Assembly (NCBI RefSeq): GCF_001677475.2
Contig: NZ_CP015229.1
DNA length: 64,000 nucleotides
Strand: one strand, 5' to 3'
Source: Escherichia coli
Lineage (GTDB): Bacteria > Pseudomonadota > Gammaproteobacteria > Enterobacterales > Enterobacteriaceae
The position numbers are program-made. This document shows positions 42,001 to 43,842 of this stretch, piece after piece; position 1 is the stretch's first letter, and the number at the start of each line of letters is the position of its first letter.

Positions 42001-43842
42001 TGACACGGCTGAAGCCATGCGCACGGAGCTTGAGCTGAACGCGGCTGCGACGATGGAACCCCAGAGTGATATCCGTGACCGCACACCGGGCAGGCTGGCC
42101 CTGTCCGGGATGTATGGGTTTGGACAGGCATTCACCAGCACTGACGCTCTGGCGTTTGAGGGGCTGTCTGATTTCGTTGAGTGGTTGAAGAAAGTCACGC
42201 CGGGGCGGTATGCGGTCAGTATTACAGACTCCTCGCAACTGCTTACCGGTACCACGCAATTTAACGGCATTATTGATGTGATGTGGTCACCGTACGCCAA
42301 CAGTGAATCCGACACAGTCCGCAAATTTAAAACCCTGATGTGCTACAACCAGTATTATCAGGGTGAACACTGTATTCACTATATGCAGTACCGGTACAAC
42401 GACAGCGATAACAGCTGGAACATGTCATCGCGGGTAGTTGTATACGACGGAGATTCACTGGCGTACCTGCTGTCCAGGATGGCGGGCTCAGGCTCATATT
42501 ATAAATACCCGGCCGTTGGTGTGCCGATTATGGCGGCATATCAGGGGGAGAGTTTTGGTGCAGATGCGTCTCTGGGGCTCGGTGATATTGTGCCGGGTTC
42601 CCGTCTTGGCCCTCTGGCTATGAGTGCACGGGTTAGCGATACAGGGACATACGCATCCTCACCGCAGGTTGTGATTGGCGGTGCTGGTGAATACAACTTC
42701 CCCGGTCGTTACACGGCGCTTTCGGGGACCCGCATTAGTCACGATACAACGCGTGGCTATATCGGTCTTTTTGTACGCATTGAGTAATAAGGAAATAAGA
42801 CATGAAAATCAGAGCGGTGAAAGGCATCAGAAACGCGCATTATCTTGAAAATGGTGCGGTTGACTGCGAGGTGTTATTTGAAGGTGAAACGGAGTTCGTC
42901 CTGTATACCGCCATACAGGATGATATGGCCCCGACAGGCCAGCATGTCTGGCAGGAGCTGCAAAGCGGGAAATGGGGCGAAATCGCCCCGTTCACCGTCA
43001 CGCCGGAACTTATTGCAGCGGCAAAGGATGCCAAAAGGCGGGAAATTGAGGCATGGCGCGACAGTCAGGAAAACGTTGAGTTTATTTTCACGTTTGATGG
43101 CCGTCGTTTTGATGGCGGAAAAACCTCGCAGTCACGCCTTGCCCCCGTGGTTGCAACAGCACAGGCCGGACTGCTTCCGGAGGGATTTTTCTGGACTGAT
43201 GCGGATAATAATAACGTCGTACTGACCAGGGAGAAACTTATTGCGCTGAACGATGCCATGATGGTGGCCATGGTGGCGGAGGGCTTTAAAATCCACGAAC
43301 GTCAGCGGGAGATGAAAGAGGAACTGAGCAGCCTGGAGGATTTACGCTCAATCAGAGCGATGGCGATTAGCAGTAATTAGCGGTCAATTCTGGGCTCTTT
43401 GTCTGCTCCTTCACCGTCTGGAATTGTGTGTCAATTAGCCTGGAATTAATCGGGTTCAGATTGTTTTGTTGTGGCAAAATTGGGACAAAAGGGGCAAAAA
43501 TGGGGCAAAAAAAGAGTAGGTTATTGTGGTTTATTGTAGTTGCTGATATGTTTTAATTCATTGAAAATGAAATAAAATACTTATGAGTCAGATGGTTGCA
43601 ATTTTTGTCCTTACTTGTTCAGGTTGTATTGTTCTTTCTTACTAATTTCTTGATTTTGCGACATTTAAAAGCGACTCAATTCGTTATATGGCATCAGAAG
43701 AGTATGCGTCATGCCGGAATGCCCAGCATAAGAAATCTGATATAAAAACAGTGGCGTGTATGGTACGGATTAGAGGGGAAAATGTCAGCACATTTGCGAA
43801 ATGAATCAAAAAGCCCGCAGCAATGTGCGGGCGTTAGTGTCA

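What the first reader, a model, noticed from the sequence alone, without database searches (positions are those of the whole stretch)
43381..43839. Prophage right boundary with tandem GGG(A)CAAAA repeats next to uspF
The segment between the last tail gene and uspF has no convincing ORF and contains three tandem direct repeats (GGGACAAAAG / GGGCAAAAAT / GGGCAAAAAAAG, about 43478-43512). In E. coli K-12 the Rac prophage ends next to uspF-ompN-ydbK, so this prophage appears to occupy the Rac locus. The attR core and the integrase are not identifiable within the window.
Basis: partly seen in the sequence, partly recalled or inferred. Interest (0 to 1): 0.3.

Follow-up and report, generated by a model that had tools for sequence, protein, structure and literature searches.

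The report
Rac-type prophage attR with integrase arm sites
This stretch is the ordinary right-hand attachment site (attR) of a lambda-like prophage sitting in the E. coli ttcA gene, the Rac site, and the small GGGGCAAAA repeats are most likely the docking ("arm-type") sites that the phage integrase uses to fold the DNA for integration and excision.

Summary
The repeats are real and number four, not three: GTGGCAAA, GGGACAAA, GGGGCAAA and GGGGCAAA at 43471-43509, spaced 11, 9 and 11 bp. No simulated window reached such a cluster.

The prophage does occupy the Rac site. The repeats are therefore not the junction. They lie 105-145 bp inside the phage, in the P arm of attR.

The integrase is indeed outside the window. 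In the closest relative, intR and xisR (proteins identical to K-12's) lie about 1-2 kb left of the window start.

The same motif, in the same orientation, forms a tandem pair in the other arm, just before the intR stop codon. Positions are nearly identical in K-12 Rac and in the free phage PHB10 (integrase 69% identical). A motif-free word search in Gifsy-2, Fels-1 and phiP27 (43% identical integrases, different cores) returns TGGGGCA pairs in both arms. IntR carries an Arm-DNA-bind_2 domain. Published EMSA shows XisR does not bind a fragment holding the array.

Best explanation: IntR arm-type binding sites (confidence about 0.8). This is an ordinary kind of element, apparently not annotated before. 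Interest is low.

The parts
42802..43380 (+). Last phage gene: a tail-fibre-assembly-like protein (DUF4376).
   Evidence: ORF. Pfam PF14301, E 4.7e-19. Annotated as a DUF4376 protein in the relative L003.
43381..43470 (+). Lineage-specific phage spacer. It holds a weak terminator-like hairpin (43437-43456) and a core-like word, GTTCAGATTGTTTTGTT (43454-43470).
   Evidence: Only 23 of 5426 genomes match at least 80% of the segment, and only such matches reach this part. K-12 Rac is unrelated to the left of about 43470. Hairpin. Core-like copy, 15 of 17 identical to 43617-43633.
43471..43514 (+). Array of four predicted IntR arm-type binding sites in the P arm: GTGGCAAA 43471, GGGACAAA 43482, GGGGCAAA 43491, GGGGCAAA 43502. 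They start at -144, -133, -124 and -113 from the first base of the core.
   Evidence: The array is conserved as the invariant blocks of the P-arm alignment of five elements. The geometry is shared with K-12 Rac, PHB10, L075 and L027. The same word is found without a motif prior in Gifsy-2, Fels-1 and phiP27.
43554..43566 (-). IHF-like site (TTTCAATGAATTA, 12 of 13 to WATCAANNNNTTR) between the arm sites and the core.
   Evidence: At the aligned position PHB10 has the perfect consensus AATCAATTAGTTA.
43588..43598 (+). Conserved core-proximal block, TCAGATGGTTG. It resembles the left half of the core (TCAGGTTG). Its function is unassigned.
   Evidence: Conserved columns TCA...GTTG in the alignment. 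Direct repeats D3 and D7.
43615..43640 (+). att core (common to attL, attR and attB): TTGTTCAGGTTGTATTGTTCTTTCTT. The prophage-chromosome crossover lies within it.
   Evidence: Similarity to the unoccupied-site genome L001 starts at 43615. The sequence is identical in K-12 attL, K-12 attR and the empty attB. Position established. Rac integration in ttcA is described by Liu et al. 2015.
43611..43664 (-). ttcA 5' remnant (the ttcC' pseudogene): MSQNQEISKKEQYNLNK, then a stop codon created at the junction.
   Evidence: Translations. In the empty-site genome, ttcA covers locus 2115-3050 and the match starts at 3001.
43643..43655 (-). Perfect IHF consensus (AATCAAGAAATTA) just right of the core, on the bacterial side in attR.
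   Evidence: This is the same TAAnnnnTTGATW element reported by Kasho et al. 2021 (PMC8407004): IHF-bound at Rac attL, with no peak at attR.
43665..43808 (-). Orphaned native ttcA upstream region, with a promoter-like site at 43788-43760 that points into the prophage end.
   Evidence: 99-100% identical to the ttcA-uspF spacer of unoccupied genomes. The promoter-like match is a consensus match only.
43813..43832 (-). Intrinsic terminator of uspF: GCCCGCA...TGCGGGC followed by TTTTT.
43840..44274 (-). uspF, the first chromosomal gene to the right.
   Evidence: ORF. Annotated as uspF in L001, L002 and L003 at the aligned position.

Best explanation
**What the segment is.** 43381-43839 is the attR site (P-O-B') of a lambdoid prophage that carries the Rac-type integration module (IntR and XisR) and is inserted in the 5' end of ttcA.

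**What is shown:**
- Phage DNA runs up to 43614.
- The 26-bp core shared by phage and host is 43615-43640.
- To its right lie the 17-codon ttcA remnant, the orphaned ttcA upstream region and the uspF terminator.

**What is inferred.** The tandem (G/T)GGGCAAA repeats at 43471-43509 are arm-type binding sites for the N-terminal domain of the integrase IntR.
- By analogy with lambda Int, each IntR protomer would hold an arm site with its N-domain and a core site with its C-terminal domains.
- DNA bending, by IHF at the consensus sites and probably by the phased A-tracts of the array itself, would bring arm and core together.
- This would assemble the intasome that carries out excision (attL x attR) and, in the free phage, integration (attP x attB).
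- The partner sites are a tandem pair 74 and 85 bp right of the core in the P' arm, between the ttcA start codon and the intR stop codon. That region lies about 2.3 kb beyond the left edge of this window.
For: 1. **Junction and core.** Unoccupied-site genomes match from 43615 onward with ttcA under the match. attL, attR and attB share exactly the 26 bp.
3. **Both arms.** The same word in the same orientation occurs twice in the P' arm of K-12 and OkiPb01695 attL, at +74 and +85.
4. **Conserved geometry despite diverged flanks.**
   - K-12 Rac sites start at -154, -143, -124 and -113.
   - PHB10, a free phage with a contiguous attP and a 69% identical integrase, has sites at -154, -142 and -123, plus +74 and +85.
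   - L075 and L027 (other hosts) match these positions.
   - The array and the core are the longest runs of invariant columns in the five-way alignment.
5. **Motif-free test.** The most repeated 8-mers in the reconstituted attP of Gifsy-2, Fels-1 and phiP27 (43% identical integrases, unrelated cores) are TGGGGCA or TGGG(G/A)CA, as 11-bp tandem pairs in both arms. The arm domain is conserved across these integrases, with the invariant pattern PTGVE...G.R.RE.L.
6. **Reverse test.** All five IntR-family viral contigs that extend past the integrase stop codon carry the P' pair; in one of them (L197) it is degenerate (GGGGCATG and GTGGGCAA).
7. **Not XisR.** Liu et al.'s AttM probe (K-12 locus 3839-4129) contains the whole array and was not shifted by XisR.
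8. **Statistics.**
Against: - No binding experiment exists for IntR on these sites. Nothing was found in the searchable literature.
- The integrase gene itself is outside the window and is inferred from a 99.5% identical relative.
- Inverted core-type sites around an overlap region could not be resolved in the 26-bp core.
- The array is also a set of helically phased A-tracts, so part of its conservation could reflect intrinsic curvature rather than sequence-specific contacts.
Confidence: 0.8

Rival explanations
1. The repeats are binding sites for the excisionase XisR (a recombination directionality factor). Such proteins typically bind short direct repeats in the P arm and bend the DNA for excision.
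For: The repeats are direct, about one helical turn apart, and lie in the P arm of attR, as lambda X1/X1.5/X2 do (established knowledge). XisR (DUF1233) is encoded next to intR and binds an attR fragment.
Against: The same word pair occurs in the P' arm, next to the integrase stop codon, in every family member examined; excisionase sites are not expected there. The AttM fragment, which contains the whole array and the whole P arm up to the core, was not bound by XisR, whereas AttR, which adds the core and the right flank, was bound.
Confidence: 0.07
2. The array is purely architectural. Phased A-tracts (A4, A4, A5, A7 every 9-11 bp) would give intrinsically curved DNA, or a preferred H-NS or IHF landing pad, that helps fold attR without sequence-specific recognition of GGGGCA.
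For: A-tracts spaced at the helical repeat can be seen directly in the sequence. The window and K-12 differ by a 10-bp indel, which is one helical turn and so preserves phase. H-NS is a reported regulator of Rac excision (cited).
Against: The conserved part is GGGGCA, not the A-tract. The P' copies and the Gifsy-2, Fels-1 and phiP27 copies read TGGGGCAT/G/C, with no or very short A runs. That pattern is what sequence-specific recognition predicts, and curvature alone does not predict it.
Confidence: 0.08
3. The repeats are non-functional: replication-slippage low-complexity DNA at a prophage end, or part of a small protein-coding gene.
For: The sequence is short, purine-rich and simple. PGAP calls a 57-codon 'hypothetical protein' across the array in some K-12 derivatives.
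Against: The array is conserved in position and orientation across integrases down to 43% identity, while the flanks are unalignable. The ORF changes frame between the window and K-12. 0 of 300 simulations reach the cluster.
Confidence: 0.03

Closest known systems
Rac prophage attR of E. coli K-12 (ttcC'-uspF junction; IntR/XisR; Liu et al. 2015, PMC4632033)
   Same: - Same integration site, in the ttcA 5' end.
- Identical 26-bp core.
- P arm about 93% identical from about 43470/43486 to the core.
- Same ttcA remnant and the same right-hand neighbours, uspF, ompN and nifJ/ydbK.
- In the nearest relative, the IntR and XisR proteins are identical to K-12's.
   Different: - The phage body differs. 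It has lambda-type exo/bet/gam and a different stf/tfa end, and it lacks the pinR-ydfK-ynaM segment that lies between tfaR and attR in K-12.
- The array has four contiguous copies here. K-12 has two pairs plus a degenerate middle copy; the difference is a 10-bp indel.
- 43381-43470 is lineage-specific.
Bacteriophage lambda attP arm-type sites (P1, P2 in the P arm; P'1-P'3 in the P' arm), with IHF sites H1, H2 and H'
   Same: - The layout is the same. Integrase-distal arm sites lie about 110-155 bp from the core.
- A tandem set lies about 75-95 bp away on the integrase-proximal side.
- An IHF consensus lies between the core and the P' sites.
- The total attP span is about 250 bp.
- The integrase has a small N-terminal sheet-plus-helix domain.
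-; the lambda values are from established knowledge.
   Different: - The word differs: (T)GGGGCA(A) here, against lambda's C/AAGTCACTAT (from memory).
- No sequence similarity to lambda Int was detected.
- The Pfam arm domain is PF12167, not the lambda Int N-domain family.
- Binding has not been tested.
Predicted integrase-binding repeats in attP of Enterococcus phage phiEf11 (AAAGGGGCAAA / AAAGGGGCA; Sci Rep 2025, PMC12540744)
   Same: The same word, as direct repeats in both attP arms next to a tyrosine integrase gene. The authors propose them as potential integrase-binding sites. Many Firmicutes-type viral contigs show the same layout.
   Different: The host phylum, the core (ffs) and the integrase lineage are all unrelated. 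No BLASTP similarity was found between the N-terminal regions of IntR and one Firmicutes-type integrase. These sites are also predictions only.

Membership tests
attP/attR of a heterobivalent (lambda-type) tyrosine integrase with arm-type sites | The integrase has a separate N-terminal arm-DNA-binding domain. | tested here: met
attP/attR of a heterobivalent (lambda-type) tyrosine integrase with arm-type sites | A repeated word, different from the core sequence, is present in both arms at some distance from the core. | tested here: met
   P arm at -144 to -113 in the window. P' arm at +74 and +85 in K-12 and OkiPb01695 attL and in PHB10 attP. The same holds in Gifsy-2, Fels-1 and phiP27 by a motif-free search. 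All five extended IntR-family contigs carry the P' pair, degenerate in one (L197).
attP/attR of a heterobivalent (lambda-type) tyrosine integrase with arm-type sites | A short core is identical in the phage and bacterial sites, and the crossover takes place within it. | tested here: met
   26 bp are identical in attL, attR and attB. Similarity to the empty site starts at 43615.
attP/attR of a heterobivalent (lambda-type) tyrosine integrase with arm-type sites | Inverted core-type integrase sites flank a 6-8 bp overlap region. | tested here: inconclusive
   The repeat search finds only direct core-like copies (TTGTTC twice; D3, D4 and D7) and no convincing dyad in or around 43615-43640.
attP/attR of a heterobivalent (lambda-type) tyrosine integrase with arm-type sites | Sites for accessory bending proteins (IHF) lie between the arms and the core. 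| tested here: met
   Perfect consensus at 43643-43655 and a 12-of-13 match at 43554-43566. A published IHF peak lies at the equivalent element of Rac attL, with none at attR. These are consensus matches only for this window.
attP/attR of a heterobivalent (lambda-type) tyrosine integrase with arm-type sites | Demonstrated binding of the integrase N-domain to the repeats, and a requirement for them in recombination. | not testable with these tools
   Needs EMSA or footprinting and attP deletion assays. No such data were found in the searched literature.
Rac prophage (the K-12 cryptic prophage itself) | Integration in the ttcA 5' end through the Rac core and P arm. | tested here: met
Rac prophage (the K-12 cryptic prophage itself) | Rac gene content: recET, and the stfR-tfaR-pinR-ydfK-ynaM right end. 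| tested here: not met
   The window starts with lambda-type exo/bet/gam next to a RecE-family gene. K-12 similarity in the right end begins only at about 43470/43486, and there are no pinR, ydfK or ynaM genes. It is a different lambdoid phage that carries the Rac integration module.
Excisionase (Xis/RDF) binding-site array | Bound by the cognate excisionase, and confined to one arm. | tested here: not met
   Primer mapping shows that Liu et al.'s unbound AttM probe contains the whole array. The word also occurs in the P' arm.

The most novel reading that the evidence does not exclude
Tandem (T)GGGGCA(A) pairs, about 11 bp apart and placed in both attP arms, may be a shared arm-site code of a very broad set of heterobivalent tyrosine integrases. 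That set would run from the enterobacterial Arm-DNA-bind_2 group (IntR, Gifsy-2, Fels-1, phiP27, and probably the Stx-phage integrases, which I did not examine) to many integrases of Firmicutes phages. If so, attP sites and prophage ends could be predicted from sequence alone, and the recognition mode would be either ancient or repeatedly reinvented.

In an arbitrary sample of 121 exact matches in IMG/VR, 35 lay 0-400 bp beyond the 3' end of an integrase gene, against about 2.3 expected. They fall in two distance classes, which look like a P' arm and a P arm.
Probability: 0.4. Interest if true: 0.45.

Novelty: new member of a known kind. Interest (0 to 1): 0.22.

Why it matters
- **For annotation.** It fixes the exact right boundary of this prophage (crossover within 43615-43640). 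It shows that the 'hypothetical protein' called over the array in some genomes is spurious. It also explains why the ttcA start is duplicated as a 17-codon remnant.
- **For phage biology.** It gives a concrete, testable map of the Rac/IntR attP: four or five P-arm sites, two P' sites, two IHF-like sites and the core. As far as the searchable literature shows, no arm-type sites have been described for this element.
- **More generally.** The family-wide conservation of TGGGGCA pairs alongside divergent cores is a simple handle for finding attP sites and prophage ends of this integrase group.
- **None of this is conceptually new.** It is the lambda paradigm applied to another integrase family.

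Tried and rejected
- **Known RNA.** An Rfam scan of 43000-46200 at E up to 1 finds only MicC at 45773-45893 and nothing in the segment.
- **Small protein.** The ORF over the array is not conserved in frame.
- **XisR sites.** Rejected on the primer mapping of the published EMSA probes and on the presence of the word in the P' arm.
- **att core or integrase elsewhere in the window.** Neither ttcA, dbpA nor an attL copy is present. BLAST of the empty-site locus matches only from 43615 onward.
- **Core-type inverted repeats.** Not resolved.
- **Sequence link between the IntR arm domain and Firmicutes integrase N-termini.** BLASTP finds nothing, and Pfam gives no arm-domain hit for those integrases.
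- **Fold link to the lambda Int N-domain.** Not retrieved. There are only weak AP2-domain matches.
- **Protein-to-locus scan of viral contigs.** It mostly returned contigs cut exactly at the integrase stop codon, so only five loci were informative.
- The offsets printed for 'window attR' are one base too negative. The correct site starts are -144, -133, -124 and -113.

Full report
**Observation.**
The segment 43381-43839 lies between a tail-fibre-assembly-like gene (42802-43380; DUF4376) and uspF (43840-44274, minus strand). The copies are GTGGCAAA at 43471, GGGACAAA at 43482, GGGGCAAA at 43491 and GGGGCAAA at 43502, spaced 11, 9 and 11 bp. The exact word GGGGCAAA occurs only twice in the whole window on both strands, both times in the array. 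None of 300 Markov-1 simulated windows contains four near-matches within 45 bp. No Rfam family matches the segment. The only ORF over the array is not kept in frame between this window and K-12.

**Where the prophage ends.**
A search of 5426 complete E. coli genomes returned matches in 5404, in four classes:
- 23 genomes match at least 80% of the segment.
- A large class matches from 43486 at 91-94% identity. These are K-12-like genomes carrying Rac.
- A class matches from 43615 at 98-100% identity, with an intact ttcA under the match. These are unoccupied sites.
- A class matches only from 43768.

In the evenly spaced sample of 40 rows, these classes account for 1, 13, 18 and 8 rows.

In an unoccupied genome the match begins 50 nt inside ttcA. 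Nothing else from that locus (the ttcA body, dbpA) is in the window. Aligning attL and attR of K-12, attL of the closest relative, the empty attB and the window shows one block identical in all: TTGTTCAGGTTGTATTGTTCTTTCTT, window 43615-43640.

To the right lie the ancestral ttcA start, MSQNQEISKKEQYNLNK, followed by a stop codon made by the junction (43664..43611). Beyond it are the orphaned ttcA upstream region and the uspF terminator. At attL the phage supplies a look-alike 5' end, MQENQQITKK.... This is the four-residue change described by Liu et al. 2015. So the prophage does sit in the Rac site and the core is in the window, but the repeats are 105-145 bp inside the phage.

**The integrase.**
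The window starts inside a lambda-type exo gene. The best relative, strain OkiPb01695, is 99.5% identical over window 1-4000. To the left of the window start it has ralR, a DUF1187 gene, xisR, intR, attL and ttcA. Its IntR and XisR proteins carry the same accessions as in K-12. IntR has an Arm-DNA-bind_2 domain (E 3.9e-26) and a phage-integrase catalytic domain. XisR is a DUF1233 excisionase.

**What the repeats are.**
Five lines of evidence bear on this.
- *Second arm.* The alignment that defined the core also showed the same word, in the same orientation, twice in the other arm: TGGGGCAAATTGGGGGCAAAC, 74 and 85 bp from the first core base, between the ttcA start codon and the intR stop codon.
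- *A free phage.* PHB10, whose integrase is 69% identical, has a contiguous attP. It carries three AGGGGCAAA words at -154, -142 and -123, a core with two mismatches, a ttcA-like 5' end, and two words at +74 and +85 just before the integrase stop codon. K-12 Rac has words at -154, -143, -124 and -113 with a degenerate copy between them. The window lacks 10 bp, one helical turn, so its four copies are contiguous at -144, -133, -124 and -113. In a five-way alignment of P arms from different hosts, the array and the core are the longest runs of invariant columns.
- *A motif-free test.* I rebuilt attP from the ends of Gifsy-2, Fels-1 and phiP27, whose integrases are 43% identical and whose cores and insertion sites are unrelated. 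I then asked which 8-mers recur most. The answer in each was TGGGGCA or TGGG(G/A)CA, as 11-bp tandem pairs in both arms and in one orientation. The N-terminal domain of these integrases is well conserved.
- *The reverse test.* All five IntR-family viral contigs that extend beyond the integrase stop codon carry the P' pair, though in one (L197) it is degenerate.
- *Exclusion of XisR.* Mapping the published EMSA primers shows that the AttM probe, which XisR did not shift, contains the whole array and the whole P arm.

Two arms, one orientation, conserved distances, a conserved arm domain and divergent cores together are the signature of arm-type integrase sites. I put this at about 0.8.

**How it most likely works (inferred, by analogy with lambda).**

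**What remains open.**
- No binding data exist.
- Inverted core-type sites were not resolved.
- The integrase of this very genome was not seen.
- XisR's site appears to need sequence at or right of the core, which is unusual and unexplained.

**Comparison and novelty.**
The location, the core and the ttcA consequences are already published for Rac. I found no description of arm-type sites for IntR or its relatives. Similar AAAGGGGCAAA repeats have been proposed as integrase sites in Enterococcus phage phiEf11. This phage is not Rac itself but a lambdoid phage carrying the Rac integration module. The finding is an ordinary attR with a newly annotated, expected kind of element, so its interest is low.

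**Side observation.**
By my rough estimate, tens of hits are expected by chance. Of the 121 arrays, 35 lie 0-400 bp beyond the 3' end of a tyrosine integrase ORF, against 2.3 expected for random positions in the same loci. Of those 35, 27 are in the Rac orientation. They fall at two preferred distances, 1-8 bp and about 195-285 bp. Most belong to Firmicutes-type integrases with no detectable sequence similarity to the IntR arm domain. One such phage, L015, shows the two-arm layout.

Noticed in passing
Loci L008-L127 (IMG/VR); e.g. L015 11908-11929 and 12122-12147; L059 142-160: Tandem GGGGCAAA pairs sit just beyond the 3' end of tyrosine integrase genes in many unrelated, mostly Firmicutes-type, viral contigs. 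35 of 121 arrays do so, against about 2.3 expected. They fall in two distance classes, 1-8 bp and about 200-285 bp. L015 has a pair in each attP arm. This may be a widely shared arm-site word.
   Followed up: partly
window 43454-43470 and 43588-43615: A core-like word, GTTCAGATTGTTTTGTT (15 of 17 identical to core 43617-43633), sits exactly where similarity to K-12 Rac begins. In addition, 43594-43615 is a 73% copy of 43622-43643. These could be extra core-type sites, a relic of past recombination, or chance.
   Followed up: no
K-12 locus L002 3839-4253 (equivalent to window about 43340-43740): Primer mapping shows that the published XisR-negative probe AttM contains the entire P arm, while the positive probe AttR adds only the core and the bacterial flank. 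XisR therefore seems to need sequence at or right of the core, which is unusual for an excisionase.
   Followed up: partly
window 43482-43490 versus L002 about 3987-4007: The window array differs from K-12's by a 10-bp indel, one helical turn. This fuses two site pairs into one contiguous array of four copies while keeping helical phase.
   Followed up: partly
L129 (E. coli ATCC 25922), locus 1299-3484: Genomes that match only window 43768-43839 carry ttcA followed by a 231-bp integrase 3' fragment and other pseudogenes before uspF. This is a decayed Rac-like remnant that has lost attR. About 8 of the 40 evenly sampled genomes are of this type.
   Followed up: partly
L128 517-690 (DH5alpha); window 43428-43556: PGAP annotates a 57-codon 'hypothetical protein' (WP_001157926.1) across the repeat array in some K-12 derivatives. 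The frame is not conserved in this window, so the call is probably spurious.
   Followed up: yes
L004 8282-8334 (attL of OkiPb01695); window 43665-43808: In the lysogen only 51 bp separate the intR stop codon from the ttcA start codon, and that gap holds the two P' sites. ttcA must therefore be transcribed from within or through intR. The native ttcA upstream region is left at attR, pointing into the prophage.
   Followed up: no
window 45773-45893: The MicC sRNA gene lies between ompN and nifJ/ydbK (Rfam RF00121, 125 bits), as expected for this chromosomal region.
   Followed up: yes
L003 53-1230 (OkiPb01695): The closest relative has an IS3-family element inserted in front of the side-tail-fibre gene. 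This is why it matches the window only from 41179 on at the right end.
   Followed up: no
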